Positions 981-57,997 of a stretch of DNA of 64,000 nt are shown here, one piece after another (position 1 is the stretch's first letter; every line of letters starts with the position of its first letter). The stretch is from Naegleria gruberi. Lineage: Eukaryota. The stretch lies in the NCBI GenBank assembly GCA_000004985.1, contig GG738855.1. The stretch is one strand, 5' to 3'. The translations under genes were made by a program, and so were the position numbers. The notes beneath the pieces are model-generated. The model was not told where the DNA came from. It made no database searches and saw only the letters and a program-made list of their open reading frames with translations.

Positions 981-990
981 TTGGCGCCAA
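981..990. promoter_or_regulatory. Perfect palindrome TTGGCGCCAA (E2F-like double half-site), 105 nt upstream of the NEK kinase ATG
   Basis: Read directly as gaagTTGGCGCCAAaaca. It is a GC-rich 10-mer in an AT-rich spacer. The same 10-mer recurs at 9334, 31509 and 57692, each time in an intergenic promoter region. Confidence 0.55.
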
Positions 991-1094
991 AACATTAAAA
1001 AAAAATACAACAAGATTAATTCGAGTAGAAACCCCATCACGAGTCGAGTCAGTTGTATAGTAATTGTGCTAGGAAGCTAGATTGTAAATAGTGA

Positions 1095-3117
1095 ATGAAT
1101 ATAAATATAATGGGTTTTCAGGATTATGATATTATTGAAGAGCTAGGATCTGGTTCCTACGGAAAAGTTTTCACTGTTCGGGATCGAAGAACTGGAGAAA
1201 TTTGTGTTCAGAAAATTGTTAGCCTAGATGGAGTTGATGAAAAGGATAGAGAAGAAACATTAAATGAGGTTCGTAGGAGTAATTATAATACAGTGCATTG
1301 ACTCTGAATAGGCTCGTTTAATGAGCCAGTGTGAACATTTCAATATCATTAAATATTTGGACTCTTTCATCGAGAATAACTACCTATGTATTATTATGGA
1401 ATATGCATCTGGAGGGGATCTGACAAAGAAAATTAAAGCACAACAGGGAAAACCATTCAAGGAAGATTTAGTGTGGAACTTTTTGATACAGATATCTCAA
1501 GGGTTGAAATATTTGCATGACAAGAGAATTTTGGTAAGTTTGTAAATTATTACAAATATTAAACTGATCACATATTATAGCACAGAGATCTTAAACCTCA
1601 AAATATATTTCTAGATGCAGAGGATAATATTAAAATTGGAGATATGGGTTTAGGAAGAATACTAGGACCTCAATCCTCTTTCGCCTCATCAAATGTAGGA
1701 ACACCTCTTTATCAAAGCCCTGAGCTGTGTCAGGAAAAGCCTTACAATCATAAGAGTGACATTTGGGCTTTTGGATGTCTTTTATATGAGCTAGCAGCTT
1801 TTTCACCTCCATTCTTAGCAACAAATCAGATAGCTCTAGCAAAGTAAGTCTCTTTGTTATACTAAATATACTTATGTTATAATAGGAAAATTGTTGGTGA
1901 TAGACCAAACAGTCTTCCCAAAATCTATTCTATGGAACTTCAATTTTTAATATTTAAAATGTTAGAAAAGGAGCCAAGTAAGAGACCAGATATAAACCAA
2001 ATATTGAATTATTCGGCTGTAAAGTTGAGAATTCAAAAGGCTAAGCTTAGACACAAGGAGTTAAAATTGAAGGAGCAATTTTTAACTTTGGAAAAACAAT
2101 TGAGAATGGATTATGAGACAAAAATTGATATGCTCGAAAGGAAACTCTCTGATTACAGATACCAGGAGGAGCAAGTGCAAATGGAAAGAGAAAATATTGT
2201 ACGTAAATAATTCTTAACATGGAATCTAATAATTTGTTATCTCACAACAGAGAGAAAGAGCTCAAGAGCTGGATAAGAAAGAGAATGGGCTGAGAGAACT
2301 CGAGGAAAAACTGCTGAGAAAGCAACACCAACTCAATGAGCTCATAAAACATGGGCATGTTATTATTTCAACACCAAATTCTGGGATTGGTCCCACCATC
2401 ACACCAAGCATACCATCGCCATTTACTTCGCCTGTGAAAGAGCACGGGACACCACAGAGAAAGGTCGACAGTAAATATTATAAACCTGAAACAACTAAGG
2501 TAGTACAAGAAAAGTTCAACTCACTCTATAACATGTTCCATGAACAACAACCAAATAATAGTCCTAATGCTCAGAAAGCTCGATCAGCACCATCAACACC
2601 TGTTAAAAAGCGAACCGATGCAGTTCCAAAGACTCCAAGCCCTAAACCTGTTCACAGACCAAAGAGCAATGGCAATGCTCCTCTTGAACACACACCAAAA
2701 CAAAAACGAAAGAATTCCAATCCTCCATCAACACCAAATGTAAACTCTTCCCAGGTGAGTGTTGGATCCTCAGTCCAGTTAGACTCTAAATTTGTTGGTA
2801 AGGTAATGGGTAAAATAATGCAGAAGAAGCAAACTACTGAGACACCACTAGGAAATAAGGGAAGAAAGCTAGGTATGGGAGGTTCTCCAGATGAAGGTTT
2901 GGTTGATAATAGGGTAAAGAAAAAGTTATCATTTGAAGAAAGTGAACCAACCTTATTCAGACCAATGCCAAGAACATCGCCCACATCAAGGCACTTTGAC
3001 TTTAGAATTTCAGAACCCAAAATAGAGATTGAAGAGTTCAATTCAGATGAAGAAAACTCAGAAGAAGACCTGTTCGTTTTAAGGAGGAAACTGAAAAATG
3101 AAGAACTAAACAAATAA
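1095..3117 (+). CDS. NIMA-related (NEK) serine/threonine kinase with coiled-coil and S/P/K-rich tail
   Basis: Model: join(1095..1268,1312..1533,1581..1843,1886..2198,2251..3117). Introns of 43, 47, 42 and 52 nt (donors GTTCGT, GTAAGT, GTAAGT, GTACGT; all end in AG) link five track ORFs into one frame. Kinase motifs are GSGSYGKV, HRDLKPQN, DMGLGR and SPE..KPYNHKSDIWAFGC, followed by the NEK-like LMSQCEHFNIIKY. Confidence 0.9.
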
Positions 3118-9208: not shown

Positions 9209-9333
9209 TAAATCTTGAATTTAAAGAAAATATCAAGGTGAGGAACTGATATTGTAATATTGTTTCAAGGTGTGAAGAACTCATTACGGTTATCCAAATC
9301 TTAGGAGAAAAGACAAAACGTAACGGTTTGGAA

Positions 9334-9343
9334 TTGGCGCCAA
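9334..9343. promoter_or_regulatory. Perfect palindrome TTGGCGCCAA, 151 nt upstream of the UBE2S-like ATG, with TAACGG (Myb/MSA-like core) 8 nt to its left
   Basis: Read directly as acgTAACGGtttggaaTTGGCGCCAAgaat. Confidence 0.55.
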
Positions 9344-9493
9344 GAATAAATGCTCATCAGACGTTATTTAAAATTCAAAAAAAAACTACAACACTCTTCA
9401 AAGGTCGTTTGCAGTACATCTTGACGACGACTATTAATTTTAGGAAGACTATCTTCATCTCTTCTATTTATACAATTATAATAATTTAATACA

Positions 9494-10195
9494 ATGAGTA
9501 CTTTCTTGCCACCAAATACACTCCAAAGAGTAACCAAGGAAATTTTCGACCTTCAAAAGAACAAGATTGATGGAATTGAAATTCTCACCTATGATCCTGT
9601 TAGAAATGTAGACTTGTTGAGTGATTTGAGCGAGATTTATGCTTCTATTGATGGTCCACAAGGTACTCCATTCGAAGGAGGTAAATTTACTATCAAATTG
9701 GTCTTGGATCACGAATTCCCTAATAAGCCACCAAAGGGATATTTCGTTACCAAGATTTTCCACCCAAATGTTTCTACACGTGAAGGTGAAATTTGTGTGA
9801 ATACATTGAAGAGAGATTGGAAGTCTACTCTTGGTTTCAGACATGTTCTCATGGTTATTCGTTGTTTGATGATTGAACCAAATCCTGATAGTGCTCTCAA
9901 TGCTGAAGCAGGTAGACTTATTCAAGATAACTATGAAGGTTATTCAAACAAGGCTAAGATGTTCACAGATATCTATGCCAAACAACAACAAGGTGTCACA
10001 AGTCAATCAGAACCTGAAGTGTCCAAGACCATCTCTGAAGAAACTGTTGTTGATTCCGAAAATGCTAAGGAAAATATTTGTAATGTAAATCAAACCCAAC
10101 AAAAGAAACCACTCCTCTTACTCAAAAAGCCAACTACCACCACAACCAATACTTCTACTGTTGCCAAAAAACCAGCAGGTTTGAAACGTCTGTAA
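9494..10195 (+). CDS. UBE2S: Ubiquitin-conjugating enzyme E2, UBE2S-like (APC/C K11 chain-elongating E2 family)
   Basis: A single 233-aa ORF. It contains FPNKPPKGYFVTKIFHPNVSTREGEICVNTLKRDWKSTLGFRHVLMVIRCLMIEPNPDSALNAEAGRL, which closely parallels the UBE2S UBC core (FP..PPKGYFLTKIFHPNV...GEICVNVLKRDW...HPNPESALNEEAG). It has a long C-terminal extension ending in a basic patch (KKPLLLLKKP...AKKPAGLKRL). Confidence 0.88.
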   Translation: MSTFLPPNTLQRVTKEIFDLQKNKIDGIEILTYDPVRNVDLLSDLSEIYASIDGPQGTPFEGGKFTIKLVLDHEFPNKPPKGYFVTKIFHPNVSTREGEICVNTLKRDWKSTLGFRHVLMVIRCLMIEPNPDSALNAEAGRLIQDNYEGYSNKAKMFTDIYAKQQQGVTSQSEPEVSKTISEETVVDSENAKENICNVNQTQQKKPLLLLKKPTTTTTNTSTVAKKPAGLKRL

Positions 10196-12931: not shown

Positions 12932-12939
12932 TTTGCCGC
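12932..12939. promoter_or_regulatory. TTTGCCGC, matching the E2F consensus TTTSSCGC, 40 nt upstream of the Myb/SANT gene ATG
   Basis: Read directly as aagtTTTTGCCGCCttttttt. It is a single 8-mer match, so chance occurrence is not excluded. Confidence 0.3.
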
Positions 12940-17670: not shown

Positions 17671-19938
17671 ATGCTTCAAAAATCAACAAGAAGAATTTCA
17701 TCACTTTATGCTGGTTGTGGTCGTATTTCATCAACACCATCATCATCGGGAGTTGTACTCAACACTAATAGTTCAATCAAAATAATTAACCATCAATACA
17801 GATGTTATAATAATCATTTGGCAAAATTAAATCGTCTATCGGAATTATCAAATAATAACAAGAAACAATTTAAAAATCATCGTGATAGACAATATCAACC
17901 AATGGATAACATTGAAACACCAAAGGAAGTAAAGAATGATGTAACTACAGAATCCTATACTAAAATATTGAAAAAGTTCTTCTTAAAGGTTCACCCTGAC
18001 TTTTTCCAACAAGATCCACCAAAACAACAACAAAACAAGGAGTCCTTCTCAAAATTGAACGAACTTTTAAATTGGACTAACGAATATACCCAATTAACAC
18101 TTGATAATAAGAATTTGAATGAAGAGGAAATAGCTGACCTGGAAAAGAGATTGAATAGACTTGGTCCTATTCCAAGCGTTGATGAATCATTTGTTTTCTA
18201 TGTTAAGGAAACTGGAAGACAAAAATCTGAACCATTTAGAATTGAAGTTTTGTTTTCTTTACCAAAGAAGGTTCAATTCAATGGAAAATTAAAGAGTAGA
18301 TTGATTTTAACTCAACGTTTGGAAGAATTAGTAACTTCACTTTTGGAAAAATCAAAAATCATAACTGCTGAGGAAGCTAAAGCAAGAAGAGACATTGCTT
18401 TGGAACAATACAGAGAAATGGAAGAGTCCGTGGGTTCAAAGGGTAAGAAGACCTATAAATCACTGAAAGAAGAGTTACGTATGGCTCTCCAAAATAATTT
18501 ACAAGGAGCAGTCAACCTTGAAAAATTAAGAAGAGGTGAAGAAGATGATGAAGAATGGTGGTGGGATAAAGACTTGCCATCCATTGAACACTTGGTTACA
18601 CACGGCATGCTCTTCTTCTCTAAGAATATTACAGCAGAACAAACCATCAAAGCTATGAATCAATTGAAGAATGGTCTTGGTGAGATGAGATATTATGAAT
18701 GGAGTGATATTCCATTAATGATTACAGAAAAAACTGGCAAGTATGCTGTAAATGATCCTGTTGATGGGTTCATTTGCATTCCTTATGACTTTACTCCATT
18801 CGATTTTGTCAAGGAAATCATTACCAACGAAAAGAACATGACACTCCTCGTTGAAAAACGTGAATTGACAAGAAAAAAGGCCGAAGCTATTCAAAACATT
18901 AGAGAAAAACTTATTGAAGAAGTTGGTTTCTCTGATTTAACCATTTCACCAGAATTGACCTCAGAAGAACTCTATACATTTATTGAAAACTTTGAAAAGA
19001 GATACTTAAGTAATGACAAGATGAAATTGTTACTGAAAGACCTCTGTATCATCATTGATAACAAGTATTCAGCAAGTCCAGATGGATACATTTCAATTCA
19101 TTGGAACTTTATGCACAATGGAAAGGACAATATGTTCGAATTTTTGAAAGATTTAGGAGCTCAAAAAATCAAGAATATCAAAGATATGGGAAGAACTCTC
19201 AGCAATCTTAAGAGAGCATGTGTTTCACTCGGTGAAGAACTCATTGATAAACTTAAATGTAAAGAACTCAATTTGACAACCTATGCCGATTTGAACGAAT
19301 CCAATATGAAACGGTATCAAACTCTCCCAGTTACCCACGAATATATGAAACGATTGAGAGAATGTTGCCTCTTCTTGGAACGTTATGATTGGAGCACACA
19401 TACTTTCTATTTGGTCAATACTTTGGATTTACCTAAAGGTTTCAAACTTCCACTCAAACAAGTTCCTCATGTCAAGACAGAGGCCGATGTTAAGAGTTTA
19501 ATGAGAAGAATGACAATATATGGTGATACTATCATTGATATGGGCGCCAGAGCAGTCTATATTCCTGTAAACTTTACTGAAAATCAATTGTTCGAAACAG
19601 TCAACAAATATTGGAAGATGATTGAAAAACCTCAATTGCAATTGGATGGTGATGATTTTACAGATGTTGTAGATCCTCAAGGATTCCAACAATATAGAAA
19701 TTTGGCCTCTGAACTCGTCAAACAAGCTGAGTTTATGCTGACAAAGAAGAGAGCAGAAAGATATCAACAATTGGCTGAATTCCTCAACAGTCTTGAAGAT
19801 CAACAATTGTATGGTAAGGGTGCCAATAGTATTATGGAAGCAGCACTAGATAGACAAGAAGATGAAAGATATATCAATCTGTATCGTACTTGGTTCAGAA
19901 TTAGAGATATTCCATTAGATGTTTTTGAAACTCAATAA
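17671..19938 (+). CDS. TCAIM-like mitochondrial protein (DUF4460/DUF4461-type)
   Basis: A single 755-aa ORF with a basic, S-rich N-terminus. FFLKVHPDFFQQDPPKQQQNKESFSKLNELLNW resembles the signature FAVHPDFF..HP.E...NE.SLK.LN block of TCAIM/C3orf23. The family call is from memory. Confidence 0.55.
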   Translation: MLQKSTRRISSLYAGCGRISSTPSSSGVVLNTNSSIKIINHQYRCYNNHLAKLNRLSELSNNNKKQFKNHRDRQYQPMDNIETPKEVKNDVTTESYTKILKKFFLKVHPDFFQQDPPKQQQNKESFSKLNELLNWTNEYTQLTLDNKNLNEEEIADLEKRLNRLGPIPSVDESFVFYVKETGRQKSEPFRIEVLFSLPKKVQFNGKLKSRLILTQRLEELVTSLLEKSKIITAEEAKARRDIALEQYREMEESVGSKGKKTYKSLKEELRMALQNNLQGAVNLEKLRRGEEDDEEWWWDKDLPSIEHLVTHGMLFFSKNITAEQTIKAMNQLKNGLGEMRYYEWSDIPLMITEKTGKYAVNDPVDGFICIPYDFTPFDFVKEIITNEKNMTLLVEKRELTRKKAEAIQNIREKLIEEVGFSDLTISPELTSEELYTFIENFEKRYLSNDKMKLLLKDLCIIIDNKYSASPDGYISIHWNFMHNGKDNMFEFLKDLGAQKIKNIKDMGRTLSNLKRACVSLGEELIDKLKCKELNLTTYADLNESNMKRYQTLPVTHEYMKRLRECCLFLERYDWSTHTFYLVNTLDLPKGFKLPLKQVPHVKTEADVKSLMRRMTIYGDTIIDMGARAVYIPVNFTENQLFETVNKYWKMIEKPQLQLDGDDFTDVVDPQGFQQYRNLASELVKQAEFMLTKKRAERYQQLAEFLNSLEDQQLYGKGANSIMEAALDRQEDERYINLYRTWFRIRDIPLDVFETQ

Positions 19939-19944
19939 ATATAT

Positions 19945-22182
19945 TTATTTCACCAAGTCCAAATAGTTTCCAGAATTATTATCAATATACTTGACCGAAC
20001 AAGACAAACAAGGAAGCAAAATTAAGGGAAGAGGAAGCAAAAACAATGTGGCAAACCCAAAAGAGTACTGTTCTGGATAAGCAATGATAATGGCATGATG
20101 AACGAATAAACAAATCAGACTACACAGTACGGTAATGTACATGTTAATGTACAAACAACGTTTGGTTTTCGAATAGAGAGCTCTACACTCCAAGCAACAC
20201 CACAAAAAGGCAATAAATATCGTTCCAGCAAACAAGAGAAACTCTACTACAAATAGTGGAATCATAGCCACTGCCCAATCAATCTCTGACTCAATAGAAA
20301 ATTGATGAGTAATCATGATTGAACACAGCATACTATAACAAAATGCCACTATTAAAATGATAGAGTTGCAAGTAGAAGTGAGCTTGGAAATCACTGTTCT
20401 GAATTTGATACTTCTCACAATCAACCAAATAAAACAATAAATCAGCATGATTGTCGAAAGTCCACCAAAAACGGCAAACAAATACCATGGAGATTGACTG
20501 AATTGAGAATGAGGCAGACACAAGTACAAATTCCACACAAGTGCAAAAACAATTCCACAAATAGATAAGAGTAACAATCCAATACATGACATGACACTAT
20601 CAAAAAACATCTTCCTCAAACTCAAGATATTCCTCTGTTTTTCCCTTCTCTTACTGTTATTCCTGAGCGCAATTCCAAGTTTCCTCGCTGAAAGTCTCAA
20701 CTCTATTATGGACGATACGAGAATATTAATCATTCCACAATAGAGTGGAAAGAATACCACAATCCAACTCCACTCATTCTCATAATCAATACCAACATTC
20801 ATCAACACTCCCTTAATGGAGAATCCCAATATGAAACATGTGAAAAAGATGTAAACCAAGGGTGCAGAAAATACAAAGTGAATAGAAGATAGCCCCTCAA
20901 TGTCATCCAAAATGAGTTGCTCTGATAGTGGAATAGTTGTGAAACGATCTGATTTTTTCTTTTCAATCTTTCTAAATATGTCAATTCCAAATTGTTTGAC
21001 TTTCTTTTCAGTTTTCAAACATTCACAATAACAATCCTTCTCGAAAATAATATCATTCACTCCCTCAATTGTTACCGATTTGTACTTTTTAAACATAGAT
21101 GGAGGTATCTGAACAGTTGATTCCTCGCTATCACAATCTGATTCATTAATTAGTGTCAATATTTCCATTTCTTCCTCTTCAGAAACATATTCTTCTGAGG
21201 TAAGAGTTTCTGATAATTGATGATCAATCAGAGCAGTTTGGCTAGCACCACTATTATTCGAAAACTCATCCATTTCAATTGAAATTACCTCCTGATGGTT
21301 TCTCTCACCACGTGGAGATTCAATATCCTCAATAAATTCCATAATTTTTGGTGGTGAAAAACATGAATTTTCTATTTTACAAACTCCTCCCAAGTCCAAT
21401 AGAGAAGGTTTCGTATTCACCTTCTTTCCATTCGACATTAAATAATTTAAATGATATTGACCTAAATTTCCACCCTTCTTCCTATTGAAAAAGTAATTCT
21501 TAACTGCCAATATTCTTCTCTTTACAACTTTTTCCTGCACATAAATATCAAAATCCTTAAAGTATAATAATTTCAATTCTCGTATCTTGATTTGATATAA
21601 TCTATTCCAAAAACGTTGTTCTCTATCCAGAAAATTGTACCACATTGAACAAGTATGTGATAAATTGACCATTGTCAAAGAATCATCCAAAAACTCTGAA
21701 ATAATCATCAAAATATCATTTGCAATAATATTCTCAAAATTATGCCATTCAACAGGTTTCAATCGTTGATTATTATTACGATGACGATGATGATGATGAT
21801 TTGCACCATCCAATATAATTGTTCCTTCCTCCTCCGAATCATCATTTCTATTTTCCATTATTATTGTTGTGGTGGTGTTGTGATTGTTGTTGTTATATGA
21901 AGAACTGAGGGCGTGAAAAATTCTGGCAATTGGTGATTTGGTATTGGTTCGTTGTTGATTGTTTATAATGGGAGAAGGTGGCTGGTCAGTTTGGATTGTG
22001 ATATGTTCTTCATCAACATCATGTCTTTCCATCAATAATTGATTACGAGATTGACTAACATGAGTAGTGACAGGTATTGGTGAGTCATCTTCGGAGAGGA
22101 GAGATTCAGAGTTTGCAAAACCAATTTCCGAAGTTTGAATTTGATGGTTGGATTTATTGGTGGATGATCGTTTTCTAGTCAT
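19945..22182 (-). CDS. F-box-like domain fused to a C-terminal polytopic (about 8-10 TM) membrane domain
   Basis: A single 745-aa ORF with ATG at 22182 after an A-run. The F-box-like segment is NDILMIISEFLDDSLTMVNLSHTCSMWYNFLDREQRFWNRLY. The C-terminal 330 aa consist of successive hydrophobic helices. It is paralogous to 35012..37813. Confidence 0.75.
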   Translation of the reverse strand: MTRKRSSTNKSNHQIQTSEIGFANSESLLSEDDSPIPVTTHVSQSRNQLLMERHDVDEEHITIQTDQPPSPIINNQQRTNTKSPIARIFHALSSSYNNNNHNTTTTIIMENRNDDSEEEGTIILDGANHHHHRHRNNNQRLKPVEWHNFENIIANDILMIISEFLDDSLTMVNLSHTCSMWYNFLDREQRFWNRLYQIKIRELKLLYFKDFDIYVQEKVVKRRILAVKNYFFNRKKGGNLGQYHLNYLMSNGKKVNTKPSLLDLGGVCKIENSCFSPPKIMEFIEDIESPRGERNHQEVISIEMDEFSNNSGASQTALIDHQLSETLTSEEYVSEEEEMEILTLINESDCDSEESTVQIPPSMFKKYKSVTIEGVNDIIFEKDCYCECLKTEKKVKQFGIDIFRKIEKKKSDRFTTIPLSEQLILDDIEGLSSIHFVFSAPLVYIFFTCFILGFSIKGVLMNVGIDYENEWSWIVVFFPLYCGMINILVSSIIELRLSARKLGIALRNNSKRREKQRNILSLRKMFFDSVMSCIGLLLLSICGIVFALVWNLYLCLPHSQFSQSPWYLFAVFGGLSTIMLIYCFIWLIVRSIKFRTVISKLTSTCNSIILIVAFCYSMLCSIMITHQFSIESEIDWAVAMIPLFVVEFLLFAGTIFIAFLWCCLECRALYSKTKRCLYINMYITVLCSLICLFVHHAIIIAYPEQYSFGFATLFLLPLPLILLPCLSCSVKYIDNNSGNYLDLVK

Positions 22183-30044: not shown

Positions 30045-31303
30045 TTAATTAATTTCTTTCCTCAGTTTCATCCAATCCATTTCGAAATCCATCTTGTAAC
30101 CCATTCTATTGAAGAGATTGGCAAATTTTGTTCTTAAATAATCATAATCTGGTTTTTCCTCAAATTTCAGTTTCTTTACGTAGAGAAAGTATTGAGTAAA
30201 CTCGATTGGCAAGCCAGCGCATAATTGATTTATGGAAGTGTTCATCTTCTTTTCCATAATCTTTTCATACTTTTTCTGTCTATTGTTTGCCATGAGACCT
30301 TGCCAAGGTAAACTACCATTTAAGAAATATACAAATAAATAACCAATACTTTCCAAATCATCACGACGACTCTGTTCATAACCCAAGTGAGAGTTTGTAC
30401 TTGTATATCTTGCTGTACCTGTAAGAGATTTGTTCTTCCTCATTGGTATATGTTTGAGACCTTCTCCTTTTTCTTCAACCATATATCTCTTAGCGAGACC
30501 AAAGTCTAACATGTAGACGTGGTGACCTTTTTCTTTTCTTCCCATTAGAAAGTTTTCAGGTTTAACTATTAAGGTGTTGGATTAGAGCTAGTTACTAAAA
30601 AAAACTTACCATCTCTATGAATAAAATGTTTGTAATGCAAAAATTCAATTCTTGAAATTAATTGATCTGCCAAAATAAGAACAGTTTTCAATGAAAATCT
30701 TCTACTACAAAAACTAAATAAATCTTCCAAAGATGGGCCAAGACATTCAATTACCATTACATTGAAATCATCTTCTACTCCATACCAATACAATTTTGGA
30801 ATTCCTATCACAGTGGCTTCTTCTTGATGATGTTGTGTAACAGAGAGTACTTCTTGACTCTTTGATGTCCCAATACCTGTACTATTAGGGCTATTTCCAT
30901 GGTTCACATGTAAAGAAGCAGTATCAATAGATGTATTCAAAGCAGCTGAGGCTGCACTTAGAGTTTTCCTGCTTGTAGAGACTGGTAATCCCCAAAGAAT
31001 TTTATAGATTCTACTCTCCGCAAGCAATTGAGGGAATTTACATTTTACTTCTTCAAACTTGATGGCTACTTCTTGATTATTACTTATTATTTTACCTGCG
31101 TGAATAGTACCAAAACTTCCACTTCCTAGTTTTGCTCCTACTAAAAATCGTTTTCCTATTAATCTAGGTATTTGTGGTTTATATGACTGTTGTTGAGCAA
31201 CTTCTATTTGTTGTTGTTGCTGTACTGCTCGAACTCCATTGTCATTCGCTGTCCTATTATTTGGAGAGGAAGGAACGACTTGATTTGAATTTGGTGGATT
31301 CAT
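30045..31303 (-). CDS. Casein kinase I with a roughly 59-aa insertion in the N-lobe and a Q-rich N-terminal extension
   Basis: Model: complement(join(30045..30565,30610..31303)). The 44-nt intron (GTAAGT..AATAG) joins ..FIHRD to VKPENFLMG. Motifs are [48 protein letters not shown] and [10 protein letters not shown]. Confidence 0.9.
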
Positions 31304-31508: not shown

Positions 31509-31518
31509 TTGGCGCCAA
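31509..31518. promoter_or_regulatory. Perfect palindrome TTGGCGCCAA in the 622-nt divergent spacer between CK1 (206 nt away) and the GAF-domain gene (408 nt away)
   Basis: Read directly as gtctaTTGGCGCCAAcgcctc. Confidence 0.5.
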
Positions 31519-42977: not shown

Positions 42978-43046
42978 TCTCTATTTCTTCTCTATGTATC
43001 CCTTAATGATGAAAATTTATTAATTTTTTTGAATATGAACTTGTTA

Positions 43047-43055
43047 TTCCCGCGC
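43047..43055. promoter_or_regulatory. TTCCCGCGC (near-consensus E2F-type site) in the divergent spacer, 70 nt from the ATG at 42977
   Basis: Read directly as gttaTTCCCGCGCattg. It is one position short of TTTSSCGC. Confidence 0.3.
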
Positions 43056-43282
43056 ATTGTACTCTGGAGACATTATTGTAGTGCGATTGATCAGAATGGC
43101 TTGAGGGTTTTGAGGTGAAAGAATGGAAATTGAGCTCCAACTAAGAATAAGTTCCCATTTCAAATAATTGTCAATGGCTCAATGGATTGTTGAGCTTGTA
43201 TGTCAAATTATCACTGTGGCAAAGATTAGACCAAAGAATTCAAGTTTGGTTGCTATGTTTGTCTAAACTTATTGTACTCTAA

Positions 43283-46703: not shown

Positions 46704-46714
46704 TTTCCCGCCAA
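46704..46714. promoter_or_regulatory. TTTCCCGCCAA (canonical E2F-type site), 76-86 nt upstream of the CEP41 ATG
   Basis: Read directly as aatagTTTCCCGCCAAtcag in the 139-nt spacer. Confidence 0.5.
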
Positions 46715-46789
46715 TCAGAGTACAAATTTCAAATCAAAAAAAAATTCAACTTTGGATTTTTAATCTCCATTATACTGCACTGTTGTATT

Positions 46790-47787
46790 ATGAGCTGCTA
46801 TTTTAAACCTATTGGTGATGCTAAGGTAGGTTGGGAATATATTGTATGATGATGATGGTCTAATTATTCTTTTGTTTTAATTTAAATCAAAATAACAACA
46901 ATAGATTTTGGAGAAGAAGGCACCATCAAGTGTTTGTTTTAAAGATGTAAGATCATCACTGGATACAGGAAAAGTAAAAAAGAAGGATGATTCAGGTAAG
47001 TTCAAAGATCTTGAATGTTTCCGAACATTACTTTCCTAACAACAGGCGATTCTAAATTATTTAAAAAAGTTGAAAACTTTAAGAGAATGAAAGGAACTGA
47101 ATTAATGAAACTCATTCTTCTCAAATTAAATTCGCAAAATAACACCTCACAAACAGAGCCTCTAGAACATGCTCCACCATCACCAAGTGGATCAAAAAGC
47201 TTGTATTCATCTATGGCTTCTTGCACATTCTCTGAAGCCAAATTAGCAGTGCATCAATCTGATCCAATCCTTGTAAAAACCAGATTGAAGGAAGATGTTC
47301 ATGATGTGGATAATATGGTACTCTTATTGGATGTTAGAGATACAGATGAATATTCAGTATGTCACATCCAGACAGCTTATAGATATCCAGCTGCTACAGT
47401 GAATAGAACTGTTAATCCATTTACACCTGAAATGCTTTCTTTTGTAAGTGTTTAAATCTTTAAAATTGGAACCTTATTGGAATTATTAAGAAAAATCATC
47501 CTCTCAAAAAAATTGTAATATATGACAGGGACGAAAAGATTGCTTGTCCTGCTGCCAACCTTCTCTTTGAAAAGGGTTTTGATAATATTGTAGTTCTTAG
47601 TGGAGGCTTACAAGAATTCTTCCAAAAACACCCAGAGCTCATTGTTGGAGAAGTGCCAAAGGAATGGTATCCTCCTGTTCTAAAGAAGAAAACAAGACCT
47701 CCTTCTGTCGCTAGCTTGAACTCAACAAAGAAGGCTTCGATTACAAAAGAGAAGACGAAATCAACAGGACCAAAACCATTCAAGTAA
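46790..47787 (+). CDS. CEP41: Centrosomal protein CEP41 (rhodanese-domain ciliary/basal-body protein)
   Basis: Model: join(46790..46825,46905..46995,47046..47443,47491..47787). The introns are 79, 50 and 47 nt (GTAGGT, GTAAGT, GTAAGT donors; AG acceptors). The joined protein has [66 protein letters not shown] and [33 protein letters not shown]. These parallel human CEP41 [60 protein letters not shown] and [34 protein letters not shown]. Confidence 0.85.
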
Positions 47788-51865: not shown

Positions 51866-52151
51866 TTCTGGTTTTTATCTGTGGCCACTGGATGGTTGTT
51901 TGGAAGTAAAAGAATAGAAATTGTAAACTAATGAAAAGTGCGCGCAACGGGATGTGTTTGTGTTGTTTCTGCGAGTCAATTTTGTAAAACTCATGCTGGG
52001 GTTGAATTTATTTTGATACAATGTTATTGAAAAAGCTGACAAACAAACCTTATTGGAATATTTCACACACCACAAAAGAAAATTAGGAATCACAAATTGA
52101 TAAGGACCTTAACGATTCTTACTATACGCACATCAATAGTGAAAACAATAT

Positions 52152-54936: not shown

Positions 54937-54949
54937 TTTTGGCGGGAAA
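54937..54949. promoter_or_regulatory. TTTTGGCGGGAAA (canonical E2F-type site, TTTCCCGCCAAAA on the gene strand), 31 nt upstream of the coiled-coil gene ATG
   Basis: Read directly as ctacTTTTGGCGGGAAAgttt in the 99-nt spacer. Confidence 0.55.
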
Positions 54950-55005: not shown

Positions 55006-57585
55006 TTACATGATCGAACAACACTTAGCCTCCTTTTCTTGGACTGGTTTTCCTGGGTTCTTATTTGGGAGTGGTGTTGGTGGCATGAAAATAGGAGATA
55101 GTTGAATATCATCTGTGTGAAGAGTGTCATTAACATTCTTCGTTTGATTATTCTGTTTAGTGAGTGGAGGAGAGTTGGACTCAGAAGCATTAAGGTTGAC
55201 TGCAAAAATATTCTCATCAGTTTTGAGAGCACTGTTACTGGAGGAGGGTTTTTCCTTGACTGGAGTTTGTGGAGGAGATAGCTGGTATGGTGTGATGTAC
55301 TTTTCATTTTCTGGACCTTTCAAATCCTTGATATGAAAAAGAGAAAAGAATGTAGACTGAAGGGATGGATCCATTGGGTGTGGCTCCAACTTTTGTTTTC
55401 TATCAGCAAAAGGTACTGGTAAATAGAGATTTTCTCGTAATTTCCACTCATATTTGGCTCCTCTTTCGAATGGTATAGTTCTATTGTTCTGCACAACATC
55501 AATATTGTAATAGAAGGATTTGGACAGCTCATCTCTTTCCAACAAATTAGATCCTCCTCCCACGTTTACAAATGAATAGTAGAATGCAAATATTTTGAAT
55601 AATGATTGATTTCTTGAAGGGTCATTTTCAAAAATCTTGTAAAACTCTACAAAACAAGGCACATCTTCCTCAACCCAATCAAGCTCAGTAAGCTTTTTGT
55701 CAAGGAAAAGAGAAATACTGACATTGAGTATAAGTCTATAAGAATTATGGTGTGAGGAAGATATTATATCATCAACGTATCTGGTAACATCAGTTTTTCC
55801 AAAAAATGCTATTGAATGTTGCTCAATAGATCTCTTTTCAATAGCCTTGTTAAAGCTCATATCTATTACTTCCATAACAAAGTCTCGAGCTATAACTATG
55901 GAATCATAGGAGGGCTTGTGTTGTGGACTGGTTGGAGGAGAATAGAAAACGTCAGAAATATATCCAACTGGTGTTGGAGTACTAGACTTGGACTCACCAC
56001 TCATTTTAGAGAATGAAGATGATCGTGTTCTTTCCTTGTAGTTTTCCCTTCTCCACTGCATTAGTTTCCAATTTTTTGGTTGGCTTCTATCGTGCACTTC
56101 AAAAGAAGAAAAATCATTGTCATACATTTCAACACTCTCCGCAGTACTTATTTCACTAAACGTATCAGTGACATCATATTGATCTAGCTCTTGTTTAGTT
56201 TCAGGCAAAGAAGTTGCAACTGTAAGAGGACTGTTTGGCCGAGATGTGGTGAAACTTTTAGAATTTCCAGTTGTGTTGGGCCTAGAAGGTTTCTTCTTTG
56301 CTTTCATGTCCCCTATTGTTGGAGTTTTCACTCTTTGTATTTGAGTATTTACAGGAACTCTTTCCACACTCTTCCTTACATCAGTTACTATGGATGTAAG
56401 TGATGATATACTTCCTCTTCGAGGTGAATTTTGGGCTGATGGTGGTGGAAACATTGTGGAATTTGTGGGTATGGCATCTTTAAGACTTGGTTTCTTAACA
56501 GCAGTTGAACCAATACTACCACTCGATGTATTGGCTGTACTTGTCTTATCCCACTGTTGCTTCTTCTTTTCTGAGGGTTCTTTACATTTAATTTCATCGG
56601 TTGGATTGAAAAATTGAGGCTTATATCCCATATCCTTAATTGGTTTTGAAGGTTCCGATCTCCTTAATGGATCAACGGCATTTGTTTTTGTTTTTGGTTT
56701 AGATTTTGTTATTATTACTGGTTGAGGGGGTGGAGGTTGGTTAATTGTTTCAATTGTGGCTTGTTTCTTTGCTTTTTCATCATTTACATATTTTGACTCG
56801 TCTTCAAGAACTGGGGAAGCTTGGAAAAACTCATCCTCAGAAGAATCTCCAATTAAAAAGTCGTCTTCCTCCTTTTTTTCTACTTTGGAGCCGGGCACTG
56901 AGAATGTTATTTGAGTTTTTGGATTGCCTTGAATGTTAGGAGTAAAAAGCCACTCTCCACTTTCGTCTTCTTGAGCCTCGCTCAGTAATTTTGAGGCAGC
57001 CATCAATCTAATGTTATGAGCAACAGATTTTCTGTCACTAATATTGGGTAAAACCTTATCCTCTGTTAGAAGGTCTTTTTGAGATCCAGGTTTAAGGTTG
57101 AGTAGTTTTGCAGAATTTCCTAACGGAGAAGGGTAATGAATATACTTCTCATTAATTAAATAATTATTTACACCTTTCTTTTCAATTAGATTTCCACTTG
57201 GAGTTTCATATTTGATGTCTGGCATTAGAGAATCCATTTTTGTAATATAATATGCTTTGTCCCTCTCCTTTTTTACCATTATCTCCTTTTCAAAGAATTC
57301 CCCATCCATAAAACGTTTCTCTTCATCACCCATTGAGAGGTTTGCTCTCGGCGTTAGAATTGTTGGAGAAAGCAAAATGTCACTCATTTCAAGAGGTGAT
57401 AATTTACTTCCTGTTGGATCAAAGAAAGATCCTCCTAAAGATCCATTCAAATCATCAAATTCATCATCCAAAATACTTGTTTGTTTGAGCATGGTAAGAT
57501 TGGTATCCATCTCCCGCTGCATCTCCTCAATGGATTGTTGATTATCAAACAAATCCAACTCGCTATTGTCCAACAAACTAGACAT
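55006..57585 (-). CDS. Hypothetical 859-aa protein, largely disordered, with a structured region of about 200 aa near the C-terminus and a terminal CaaX box (CCSIM)
   Basis: A single ORF. It ends ...KEAKCCSIM*, and CSIM fits C-a-a-X with X=M. No family recognised for the region ILNVSISLFLDKKLTELDWVEEDVPCFVEFYKIF...FAFYYSFVNVGGG...YEWKLRENLYLPVPF. Confidence 0.68.
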   Translation of the reverse strand: MSSLLDNSELDLFDNQQSIEEMQREMDTNLTMLKQTSILDDEFDDLNGSLGGSFFDPTGSKLSPLEMSDILLSPTILTPRANLSMGDEEKRFMDGEFFEKEIMVKKERDKAYYITKMDSLMPDIKYETPSGNLIEKKGVNNYLINEKYIHYPSPLGNSAKLLNLKPGSQKDLLTEDKVLPNISDRKSVAHNIRLMAASKLLSEAQEDESGEWLFTPNIQGNPKTQITFSVPGSKVEKKEEDDFLIGDSSEDEFFQASPVLEDESKYVNDEKAKKQATIETINQPPPPQPVIITKSKPKTKTNAVDPLRRSEPSKPIKDMGYKPQFFNPTDEIKCKEPSEKKKQQWDKTSTANTSSGSIGSTAVKKPSLKDAIPTNSTMFPPPSAQNSPRRGSISSLTSIVTDVRKSVERVPVNTQIQRVKTPTIGDMKAKKKPSRPNTTGNSKSFTTSRPNSPLTVATSLPETKQELDQYDVTDTFSEISTAESVEMYDNDFSSFEVHDRSQPKNWKLMQWRRENYKERTRSSSFSKMSGESKSSTPTPVGYISDVFYSPPTSPQHKPSYDSIVIARDFVMEVIDMSFNKAIEKRSIEQHSIAFFGKTDVTRYVDDIISSSHHNSYRLILNVSISLFLDKKLTELDWVEEDVPCFVEFYKIFENDPSRNQSLFKIFAFYYSFVNVGGGSNLLERDELSKSFYYNIDVVQNNRTIPFERGAKYEWKLRENLYLPVPFADRKQKLEPHPMDPSLQSTFFSLFHIKDLKGPENEKYITPYQLSPPQTPVKEKPSSSNSALKTDENIFAVNLNASESNSPPLTKQNNQTKNVNDTLHTDDIQLSPIFMPPTPLPNKNPGKPVQEKEAKCCSIM

Positions 57586-57691
57586 TTAAAATGTTTTTCA
57601 ATGATAATGGTGCAGATGATGTTTTGATCTATCAAATTAAGTAGTGCCTTAAATCGTCCTAGTCGTATTTTTTTTTAAATTTTTAAATCAT

Positions 57692-57701
57692 TTGGCGCCA
57701 A
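57692..57701. promoter_or_regulatory. Perfect palindrome TTGGCGCCAA (as TTTGGCGCCAA), 107 nt upstream of the ATG at 57585, with CAACGG 9 nt to its right
   Basis: Read directly as aatcaTTTGGCGCCAActcctttCAACGGcaac. Confidence 0.55.
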
Positions 57702-57997
57702 CTCCTTTCAACGGCAACAAAGGGCCTGTTCTTTTTTCTAAGGACAAACCATATCAATCCTATGATACGATAACGTATTAATAAATTAATTTGTTTGATT
57801 CAGATCTACAGGATTCTTAGAAGATATATAATACTCTTTGTAAGGAATTGAAAATGATCTCTTCAATATTGAACTAGATACTTTGTTACTACCATATATC
57901 AGCCCAACTCACGGCAATTTATTTAATAATCGTGATAGACCTTGAAATTAGAGGCCTTGAAATTGTTGGCAGGGAAGATGCGTATGGCAAATAAAAA

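What the first reader, a model, noticed from the sequence alone, without database searches (positions are those of the whole stretch)
981..990. The perfect palindrome TTGGCGCCAA occurs four times, always in promoter spacers
The identical 10-mer is at 981-990 (105 nt before the NEK ATG), 9334-9343 (151 nt before the UBE2S-like ATG), 31509-31518 (CK1/GAF divergent spacer) and 57692-57701 (107 nt before the ATG at 57585). I saw no copy inside coding sequence. Assuming roughly 1/3 each for A and T and 1/6 each for G and C, a back-of-envelope expectation for this 10-mer in 64 kb is well below 0.1, so four copies confined to the roughly 10% of non-coding DNA is striking. TTGGCGC on both strands is the E2F/DP core (TTTSSCGC), and TTTGGCGCCAAA is the classical symmetric E2F site. 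Two of the four downstream genes (a NEK kinase and the APC/C-associated E2 UBE2S) are textbook cell-cycle genes. AACGG (Myb/MSA-like core) lies within 8-10 nt of two copies (9322-9326, 57710-57714) and next to GCGCGC at 51946-51950. That co-occurrence is suggestive but statistically weak.
Basis: partly seen in the sequence, partly recalled or inferred. Interest (0 to 1): 0.65.

Follow-up and report, generated by a model that had tools for sequence, protein, structure and literature searches.

The report
Conserved E2F-type promoter sites in Naegleria
The repeated 10-base palindrome TTGGCGCCAA is a real, evolutionarily conserved promoter element of the amoeba Naegleria gruberi. It is almost certainly the docking site of the cell-cycle regulator E2F, so it is an expected kind of element, seen here in an organism whose gene switches are largely uncharted.

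Summary
TTGGCGCCAA occurs exactly four times, at the stated coordinates, against about 0.01-0.02 expected. All four copies lie in non-ORF spacers upstream of genes. It is the most over-represented word in the window that is not a coding trinucleotide repeat.

The window is Naegleria gruberi. The orthologues of one target gene in N. fowleri and N. lovaniensis are only about 33% identical as proteins. Each carries the same 10-mer just upstream of its ATG, as the only copy in 23 kb.

The relaxed E2F consensus is also promoter-confined. TTCCCGCCAA occurs twice, both times close upstream of an ATG. Of 13 TTSSCGC strand hits, 12 are non-ORF.

N. gruberi encodes E2F, DP, a DEL/E2F7-8-like protein and RB. 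The recognition helices of its E2F and DP are identical to those of human E2F4 and DP2. The E2F7/8-like genes of the two sister species have TTTSSCGC sites in their promoters.

Downstream genes include a confirmed UBE2S and a NEK kinase. In the CK1/GAF spacer, GAF is not the conserved target.

Verdict: these are E2F-family binding sites, a new member of a known kind. Binding and cell-cycle expression were not tested. Interest is moderate.

The parts
981..990 (.). TTGGCGCCAA copy 1. It lies in the divergent spacer between the CS/p23-like gene (ATG 364, - strand) and the NEK gene (ATG 1095, + strand), 104 nt before the NEK ATG.
9334..9343 (.). TTGGCGCCAA copy 2. It lies in the tandem spacer 150 nt before the UBE2S ATG (9494). 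It is unchanged in a 99.2% identical N. gruberi strain whose spacer otherwise differs at about 12 positions.
31509..31518 (.). TTGGCGCCAA copy 3. It lies in the divergent CK1/GAF spacer, 205 nt from the CK1 ATG (31303, - strand) and 407 nt from the GAF ATG (31926). The GAF orthologues elsewhere lack the site, so CK1 is the more likely target; this was not tested.
57692..57701 (.). TTGGCGCCAA copy 4, 106 nt before the ATG (57585) of the 859-aa gene NAEGRDRAFT_64718. It is conserved upstream of the orthologues in N. lovaniensis and N. fowleri.
46705..46714 (+). TTCCCGCCAA (in context TTTCCCGCCAAT), the asymmetric E2F-type variant, 76 nt before the ATG (46791) of a rhodanese-domain gene.
54939..54948 (-). 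TTCCCGCCAA on the - strand (TTGGCGGGAA on the + strand), 32 nt before the ATG (54906) of a - strand coiled-coil gene.
12932..12939 (+). TTTGCCGC, a weaker E2F-consensus site in the divergent spacer between the 797-aa gene (ATG 12706, - strand) and the Myb-domain gene (ATG 12979, + strand).
43047..43055 (+). TTCCCGCGC, a weaker E2F-consensus site in the divergent spacer 42978-43282. It abuts an AGAGTACAA copy.
51940..51950 (+). GCGCGC followed directly by AACGG, about 75-85 nt upstream of the ATG (51865) of a zf-PARP-domain gene on the - strand. It may be a related GC-core site; this was not evaluated.
997..1014 (+). A9 run followed by TACAAC, 6 nt downstream of copy 1. It is a putative core-promoter or start-site element. 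The same arrangement occurs at 9377-9392 (+), 46736-46750 (+) and 57662-57676 (-).
9322..9326 (+). AACGG 7 nt distal to copy 2. A second AACGG at 57710-57714 lies 8 nt distal to copy 4.
1095..3117 (+). NEK kinase gene of 5 exons and 612 aa, with a kinase domain followed by a coiled coil. It is the presumed target of copy 1.
9494..10195 (+). UBE2S orthologue of 233 aa whose C-terminal tail ends ...LKRL. It is the presumed target of copy 2.
30045..31303 (-). CK1-family kinase gene of 2 exons. It is the possible target of copy 3.
55006..57585 (-). 859-aa Naegleria-specific protein ending in the CAAX-like sequence KCCSIM. It is the target of copy 4.

Best explanation
TTGGCGCCAA is a promoter-proximal binding site for the E2F family of winged-helix transcription factors of Naegleria gruberi. 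The asymmetric relatives TTCCCGCCAA and TTTSSCGC are sites of the same kind. The most likely binder is the E2F/DP heterodimer, with the E2F7/8-like DEL protein as a possible competitor.

The sites sit about 30-200 nt upstream of start codons. In several promoters they lie 6-33 nt upstream of an A-run plus TAC(A/G)AC block that may mark the transcription start.

By analogy with animals and plants, an RB-family pocket protein bound to E2F/DP would keep these genes off outside the proliferative window, and CDK activity would release them. This would co-regulate a set of division-related genes: UBE2S, a NEK kinase, probably a CK1, and several lineage-specific genes.

Shown here:
- the enrichment of the motif
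- its confinement to promoters
- its conservation at one orthologous promoter in three species
- the existence of E2F and DP with unchanged recognition helices
- consensus sites in the E2F7/8-like gene's own promoter

Inferred:
- actual binding
- which family member binds
- the RB/CDK logic
- cell-cycle timing of the target genes
For: - Four exact copies against 0.01-0.02 expected, all in the 17.5% of the window that is non-ORF, and the top non-repeat word in an unbiased scan.
- TTSSCGCCAA has 6 distinct sites against 0.09 expected strand hits, and all 6 are upstream of ATGs. TTSSCGC has 13 strand hits against 2.9 expected, and 12 of them are non-ORF.
- The genome is CpG-depleted (observed/expected 0.36 in ORFs), so retention of a CpG-core word in promoters implies selection.
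- Each 23-kb locus around the N. lovaniensis and N. fowleri orthologues of the 859-aa gene holds exactly one TTGGCGCCAA, 22-26 nt before the annotated ATG. This holds despite about 33% protein identity, unalignable flanks and a different upstream neighbour. There is no copy in 40.5 kb of unrelated Naegleria DNA.
- The 10-mer is contained in the human E2F1 HT-SELEX consensus. TGGCGCCA is the E2F-assigned top upstream motif in Cryptosporidium.
- N. gruberi has E2F, DP, DEL and RB. Its E2F helix [24 protein letters not shown] and its DP segment KNIRRRVYDALNVLMA match human E2F4/DP2 of structure 1CF7 exactly.
- The promoters of the E2F7/8-like gene, a canonical E2F target, carry TTTTGGCGC in both N. 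fowleri and N. lovaniensis. N. lovaniensis also has TTTCCCGCC about 145 nt further upstream, where N. fowleri reads GCTCCCGCC. In the N. lovaniensis locus these are the only two TTSSCGC hits in 22.5 kb.
- Targets include a confirmed UBE2S and a confirmed NEK.
- The flanks of the copies share no extended similarity, and there are no RNA genes in the spacers.
Against: - There is no binding or expression evidence.
- Classical replication targets (MCM, PCNA, RNR) could not be examined, because N. gruberi loci outside the window were not retrievable.
- All six full copies seen (four here, two in the sister species) are perfect 10-bp palindromes, and no near-variant occurs in non-coding DNA. E2F/DP sites are usually asymmetric and tolerant, so this pattern would suit a symmetric dimer.
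- The GAF orthologues lack the site.
- A more distant UBE2S orthologue (57% identity, organism unknown) lacks the exact 10-mer and has AAAGCGCTAAA at the aligned place.
- Two of the six strong-site targets have no recognisable function, and the rhodanese-domain and CK1 genes have no established cell-cycle role.
- The N. fowleri and N. lovaniensis DEL promoters are nearly identical overall, so conservation there says little.
Confidence: 0.78

Rival explanations
1. The site is bound by a different, possibly lineage-specific, factor that recognises the GGCGCC palindrome as a symmetric homodimer. On this reading the resemblance to E2F sites is coincidental.
For: - All six full copies are perfect 10-bp palindromes, with no 1-mismatch variants in non-coding DNA.
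- Only two of the four palindrome-linked genes are textbook cell-cycle genes.
- Other over-represented words, such as AGAGTACAA, show that the window holds unassigned promoter motifs.
Against: - The asymmetric TTCCCGCCAA and TTTSSCGC variants share the promoter confinement and the same downstream A-run architecture. A strict palindrome reader would not predict this.
- E2F and DP with unchanged recognition helices exist in the genome.
- The 10-mer is the published E2F1 optimum.
- The E2F7/8-like gene promoter carries consensus sites.
Confidence: 0.12
2. The palindromic copies are sites specifically for the atypical two-domain repressor DEL (E2F7/8-like), or for an E2F homodimer, rather than for the E2F/DP-RB module. 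This is the same protein family with a different logic: constitutive or late-S repression.
For: - N. gruberi and both sister species encode a two-domain DEL protein.
- From my own knowledge, TTCCCGCCAAAA-type sites are the published E2F7/8 optimum, and isolated E2F DNA-binding domains select symmetric TTTGGCGCCAAA in SELEX. The E2F1 consensus is of this symmetric kind.
- The strict symmetry of the copies fits two equivalent DNA-binding domains.
Against: Nothing here distinguishes between family members. In animals and plants, E2F/DP and E2F7/8 share the same sites.
Confidence: 0.2
3. The motif has a non-transcriptional or passive origin. It could be a chance or compositional artefact, a remnant of a repeated or mobile element, or a CpG word that merely survives in unmethylated spacers.
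For: CpG words in general are less depleted in non-ORF DNA (observed/expected 0.66 against 0.36 in ORFs). Of 16 GCGC occurrences, 9 are non-ORF.
Against: - The expectation is 0.002 copies in the non-ORF DNA, against 4 observed.
- The flanks are unrelated.
- The exact 10-mer recurs at the orthologous promoter in two other species, and nowhere else in 86 kb.
- It always lies on the 5' side of a gene.
Confidence: 0.02

Closest known systems
Animal E2F sites (TTTSSCGC; human E2F1 HT-SELEX optimum TTTGGCGCCAAA; E2F4-DP2-DNA structure 1CF7)
   Same: - The 10-mer is contained in the published optimum.
- The location is promoter-proximal.
- The cognate E2F and DP recognition helices are identical.
- UBE2S, NEK-type and E2F7/8-type genes are among the targets.
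   Different: - The organism is a heterolobosean (Discoba), far from animals.
- The copies seen are strictly palindromic, rather than the usual loose asymmetric sites.
- Binding, RB dependence and cell-cycle timing are untested.
- The CDE/CHR tandem arrangement of animal G2/M promoters was not found in its canonical form.
Cryptosporidium parvum upstream 'E2F' motif 5'-TGGCGCCA-3' (Oberstaller et al. 2013, PMC3734150)
   Same: - It has the same palindromic core.
- It is the most over-represented upstream word in a compact, AT-rich protist genome.
- It was assigned to E2F by similarity, not by binding.
   Different: - The eukaryotic supergroup is different.
- In Cryptosporidium the motif was tied to expression clusters genome-wide. 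Here only one 64-kb window and eight small loci were available.
- Cross-species conservation was shown here.
Plant E2F sites (TTTCCCGCC type) combined with Myb3R/MSA elements (AACGG)
   Same: - TTTCCCGCCAA occurs twice in promoters.
- AACGG lies 7-8 nt from two palindromes and directly next to a GCGCGC core.
   Different: - The AACGG partner is not conserved in N. fowleri or N. lovaniensis.
- No Myb3R protein was looked for.
- The sample is tiny.
NFI/CTF sites (TTGGC-N5-GCCAA)
   Same: The half-sites TTGGC and GCCAA are the same.
   Different: The spacing is 0 instead of 5 nt. From my own knowledge, NFI proteins are known only from animals. NFI sites lack a CpG core. This is not a member of the family.

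Membership tests
E2F-family binding site | The sequence matches the E2F consensus (TTTSSCGC, or the symmetric optimum TTTGGCGCCAAA). | tested here: met
   TTGGCGCCAA contains TTGGCGC on both strands. It is contained in the human E2F1 HT-SELEX consensus quoted in PMC5449588. Copies 1 and 4 extend to TTTGGCGC on one strand.
E2F-family binding site | The same genome encodes the cognate E2F and DP proteins, with intact RRXYD recognition helices. | tested here: met
   NgruE2F, NgruDP, NgruDEL and NgruRB sequences are given in the supplement of Medina et al. 2016. Alignment to 1CF7 chains A and B shows identical recognition helices. The N. fowleri and N. lovaniensis DEL orthologues carry Pfam WHD_E2F_TDP.
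E2F-family binding site | The site is promoter-proximal and absent from coding sequence. | tested here: met
   All 6 TTSSCGCCAA sites lie in spacers 32-205 nt from an ATG, and 12 of 13 TTSSCGC strand hits are non-ORF.
E2F-family binding site | The site is conserved at orthologous promoters. | tested here: inconclusive
   - Met for the 859-aa gene in two species.
- Not met for GAF, which reassigns copy 3 to CK1.
- Unchanged in a 99.2% identical strain for UBE2S.
- A distant UBE2S orthologue lacks the exact word.
- The NEK, UBE2S and CK1 orthologues of N. fowleri and N. lovaniensis could not be fetched.
E2F-family binding site | The site is enriched at cell-cycle and DNA-replication genes, including canonical targets. 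| tested here: inconclusive
   UBE2S and NEK are confirmed. The promoters of the E2F7/8-like gene carry TTTSSCGC sites. No MCM, PCNA, RNR, CDC6 or cyclin promoter could be retrieved, and several targets have unknown function.
E2F-family binding site | E2F/DP physically binds the site (EMSA, ChIP or DAP-seq). | not testable with these tools
   This needs recombinant protein or chromatin experiments.
E2F-family binding site | The downstream genes show cell-cycle-dependent, RB-dependent expression. | not tested
   A mitotic-synchrony and differentiation RNA-seq series exists, but its data tables are not held.
NFI/CTF site | TTGGC and GCCAA half-sites are separated by 5 nt. | tested here: not met
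   The half-sites abut with spacing 0 in all copies.
Repeat or mobile-element remnant | Sequence similarity extends beyond the core word. | tested here: not met
   The flanks do not align; only the core columns are invariant.

The most novel reading that the evidence does not exclude
The E2F-type site may be one part of a composite Naegleria promoter code that marks a division and centriole-assembly regulon. The other parts would be a downstream A9 + TAC(A/G)AC block and partner words such as AACGG and AGAGTACAA.

The motif-bearing genes seen here are a NEK kinase, a rhodanese-domain protein that looks like CEP41 (from memory, not tested), UBE2S, a CK1 and coiled-coil proteins. That set would fit E2F control of de novo basal-body and centriole assembly during the amoeba-to-flagellate switch. 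This would parallel the E2F4/5-multicilin programme of animal multiciliated cells and would push that link back toward the last eukaryotic common ancestor.
Probability: 0.12. Interest if true: 0.7.

Novelty: new member of a known kind. Interest (0 to 1): 0.4.

Why it matters
Cis-regulatory elements of Naegleria are essentially undescribed. A recent review notes that the factors driving its large differentiation programme are unknown, because RFX, FOXJ1 and XAP5 are absent.

A conserved E2F-type site gives a concrete and testable entry point: a motif, a cognate factor set, and candidate targets.

The result is confirmatory rather than surprising. The proteins were already known to be present, and their recognition helices are unchanged.

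Tried and rejected
- Chimeric protein queries. These were built to fetch several orthologues in one homology search. The search appears to filter candidates by length, so only long proteins came back: the GAF and DEL orthologues.
- N. gruberi genes. They are not in the gene-position index, so the window could not be extended and no N. gruberi cell-cycle promoters could be read.
- AlphaFold model of the 859-aa target. It failed, with mean pLDDT 30.5, so no fold search was run and the function stays unknown.
- tblastn of window proteins against the six sister-species loci. No hits, so there is no fortuitous synteny.
- Expression data. The 2010 differentiation paper and the 2025 Current Biology paper are not held, and the preprint has no held supplements.
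- Metagenome scan for UBE2S relatives. It gave one full-length but distant orthologue without the exact word, and otherwise unrelated eukaryotes with no E2F-like sites upstream. This is inconclusive.
- NFI-type site. Rejected on half-site spacing.
- Repeat remnant. Rejected because the flanks are unrelated.
- RNA gene in the spacers. Rejected: no Rfam or tRNA hits.
- AGAGTACAA. It is over-represented in the window but absent from 131 kb of sister-species DNA, so it was not built into the model.

Full report
**Observation.** TTGGCGCCAA occurs exactly four times, at 981, 9334, 31509 and 57692, and in none of 100 dinucleotide-preserving shuffles. With the window's composition (34.6% G+C) the expected number is 0.011-0.020. 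For the 17.5% of the window not covered by ORFs it is about 0.002, and the Poisson P for four or more copies is about 1e-9. The choice of word was not a lucky one. In an unbiased scan of all 8-, 9- and 10-mers, TGGCGCCAA/TTGGCGCCAA is the most over-represented word apart from coding trinucleotide repeats such as CAACAACAA. GGCGC occurs only five times in 64 kb, four of them inside the palindrome. The single 1-mismatch variant lies in coding sequence and lacks the CpG core. All four copies are in spacers on the 5' side of at least one gene. The estimate of about 10% non-coding DNA is low; I measure 17.5% non-ORF.

**Organism and genes.** The 859-aa ORF downstream of copy 4 is 100% identical to a predicted protein of Naegleria gruberi, NAEGRDRAFT_64718. 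Genes have short introns of about 45-55 nt.
- The gene after copy 1 is a five-exon NEK kinase with a coiled-coil tail. Its best solved relatives are NEK1, NEK2 and NEK7.
- The gene after copy 2 is a true UBE2S. Its six best solved relatives are all UBE2S, at 171 bits against 104 for the next E2, and its tail ends ...LKRL.
- Copy 3 lies between a CK1-family kinase and a 990-aa protein annotated as GAF-domain in the sister species.

No tRNA or Rfam RNA gene lies in the window. The flanks of the copies do not align with each other, so this is not a repeat remnant.

**The relaxed consensus behaves the same way.** TTCCCGCCAA, the classical asymmetric E2F word, occurs twice. One copy lies 76 nt before the ATG of a rhodanese-domain gene (46705). 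The other, on the - strand, lies 32 nt before the ATG of a coiled-coil gene (54939). TTSSCGCCAA thus has six distinct sites against 0.09 expected strand hits. TTSSCGC has 13 strand hits against 2.9 expected, and 12 of these are outside ORFs. The genome is strongly CpG-depleted, with observed/expected 0.36 in ORFs and 0.66 outside. Survival of a CpG-core word in promoters therefore points to selection.

**Phylogenetic footprint.** I fetched about 23 kb around the orthologues of the 859-aa gene in N. lovaniensis and N. fowleri.
- The proteins are only about 33% identical to the N. gruberi one.
- The upstream neighbour is different: a tandem RGS gene instead of a divergent PAP2 gene.
- The promoter flanks do not align.
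- Each locus nevertheless contains exactly one TTGGCGCCAA, which is also its only GGCGCC, 22-26 nt before the annotated ATG.

The two loci around the GAF orthologues (40.5 kb) contain no copy at all, and GAF is not next to CK1 there. This gives a background rate. It also shows that GAF is not the conserved target of copy 3, so CK1 is the more likely target, though I could not test that. A metagenome contig from a 99.2% identical N. gruberi strain has about a dozen differences in the UBE2S spacer but none in the block from AACGG through the palindrome to the A-run. That evidence is weak but consistent.

**The factor.** The sequence supplement of Medina et al. 2016 lists N. gruberi E2F, DP, DEL (E2F7/8-like, two DNA-binding domains) and RB. 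Aligned to the human E2F4-DP2-DNA crystal structure 1CF7:
- the E2F recognition helix [24 protein letters not shown] is identical
- the DP segment KNIRRRVYDALNVLMA is identical and the next stretch, NIISKxKKEIKW, differs at one residue (D for E)

The human E2F1 HT-SELEX consensus is ATTGGCGCCAAA/TTTGGCGCCAAA, which contains the Naegleria 10-mer. A protein able to read this word is therefore present, with its reading head unchanged.

**A hypothesis-driven test.** E2F7/8-type genes are classical E2F targets. The only further Naegleria proteins I could retrieve were the DEL orthologues of N. fowleri and N. lovaniensis.
- Both promoters carry TTTTGGCGC about 70-80 nt before the ATG.
- About 145 nt further upstream, N. 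lovaniensis has TTTCCCGCC where N. fowleri reads GCTCCCGCC.
- In the N. lovaniensis locus these are the only two TTSSCGC hits in 22.5 kb.

The two promoters are nearly identical overall, so conservation there is uninformative. The point is that the sites are present.

**Promoter architecture (inferred).** Four of the six A runs of 9 or more in the window lie 6-33 nt downstream of an E2F-type site, and each is followed by TACAAC, CTACAAC, TACGAC or TTCAAC, 47-109 nt before the ATG. Shorter A-runs precede many other genes, often abutting the ATG. The A-run is therefore probably a general core-promoter or leader feature, and the E2F site sits just upstream of it, as E2F sites do in animals. AACGG is rare here (19 copies, 5 of them non-ORF). 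It lies 7-8 nt distal to copies 2 and 4 and directly beside a GCGCGC at 51940, for a nominal P of about 0.002. It is not conserved at the orthologous promoters.

**Mechanism.** The best-supported reading is that E2F/DP binds these sites, with DEL as a possible competitor. They would place a set of division-related genes under RB/CDK-type control, as in animals and plants. The enrichment, the position, the conservation at one locus, the presence of the proteins and the consensus sites at the DEL promoter are shown. Binding, the identity of the family member, the RB logic and the timing of expression are inferred.

The main internal tension is the strict symmetry of all six full copies. That would suit a symmetric dimer or the two-domain DEL protein better than the usually tolerant E2F/DP heterodimer.

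**What could not be done.** N. gruberi is not in the gene-position index. The structure prediction of the 859-aa protein failed. The expression tables that would test co-regulation are not held. A distant UBE2S orthologue lacks the exact word.

**Comparison and novelty.** The closest known cases are animal E2F sites and the TGGCGCCA 'E2F' motif that tops upstream-motif searches in Cryptosporidium parvum. I found no paper that describes E2F sites, or any promoter motif, in Naegleria. This is a new member of a known kind. It is useful as a first cis-regulatory handle in Naegleria, and as a Discoba data point for an ancestral E2F word, but it is not surprising.

Noticed in passing
window 808, 43057, 43272, 45319, 46717, 51162, 54926: AGAGTACAA occurs 7 times exactly, against about 0.8 expected from composition, and 5 of the copies are outside ORFs. 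Three lie 1-5 nt from an E2F-type site (46705, 54939, 43047). The word is absent from 131 kb of N. fowleri and N. lovaniensis DNA. This is unexplained.
   Followed up: partly
window, e.g. 7796, 14136, 17665, 22334, 24989, 45460 (+); 54912, 52763, 49158, 40817, 22188, 12713, 7599, 370 (-): Many genes have a run of 7-8 A directly abutting the start codon (AAAAAAATG). Longer A9 runs followed by TAC(A/G)AC sit just downstream of E2F-type sites. This may be a core-promoter or leader signature of Naegleria.
   Followed up: partly
whole window: CpG is strongly depleted in ORFs (observed/expected 0.36) and less so in non-ORF DNA (0.66), while GpC is near normal. This is compatible with gene-body cytosine methylation in this organism.
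   Followed up: partly
L003:9815-9850 and L004:9790-9825: The promoters of the GAF orthologues in N. fowleri and N. lovaniensis share a block TTCGTTAAAAAAAAAT[A/T]GCGCGCT...TTTACTGTT about 150-200 nt before the ATG. It is a different GC-core element and is not present upstream of the N. gruberi GAF gene.
   Followed up: no
window 55006-57585 (-); L001:10001-12868; L002:10001-13060: The 859-aa target protein is Naegleria-specific and mostly predicted to be disordered. It has islands conserved across the three species (RKSVAHNIRL.AASKLL, GYKPQFFNP, KCKEPSE.KKQQW, WKLM.WRR.N) and a conserved C-terminal CAAX-like end (KCCSIM / KCCFM). The AlphaFold model was unusable.
   Followed up: partly
window 46791-47787 (+): The multi-exon gene downstream of TTTCCCGCCAAT encodes a rhodanese-domain protein. 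Its core (LLLDVRD..EY..CHI..AY.YP) looks like the centriolar/ciliary protein CEP41. That resemblance is from memory only; the only tool support is a Pfam Rhodanese match below the gathering score.
   Followed up: no
window 9494-10195 (+); L007: The NCBI model of the UBE2S gene is a partial 159-aa protein, but the ORF is 233 aa with an APC/C-type C-terminal tail (...LKRL). The full 233-aa product is found on a metagenome contig (ERZ929261) from a 99.2% identical strain.
   Followed up: partly
window 51940-51950: The only GCGCGC in the window is fused to AACGG (GCGCGCAACGG), about 75-85 nt upstream of a gene with a PARP/DNA-ligase-type zinc finger. It may belong to the same regulatory class.
   Followed up: no
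L009:270-360: A full-length UBE2S orthologue (57% identity, tail ...NLKRL) lies on contig JAESGV010000908.1, from an unidentified organism. Upstream it has CCGTTACGTGCTTTGGAATGTAAAAGCGCTAAATAAA. This aligns with the N. gruberi sequence CGTAACGGTTTGGAATTGGCGCCAAGAATAAAT, with an AGCGCT core in place of GGCGCC.
   Followed up: partly
window 30569-31303 (-): The CK1-family kinase has a long N-terminal extension and an insert of about 60 residues in the N-lobe (...[44 protein letters not shown]...), which is unusual for CK1.
   Followed up: no
L005:21636-21644 and L005:19464-19470: In N. fowleri, a 9-of-10 copy (TGGCGCCAA) lies 166 nt before the ATG of an unannotated gene at 21811. A TTGGCGC lies 10 nt before the ATG of a small gene at 19453 on the - strand. 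These are further candidate sites.
   Followed up: no
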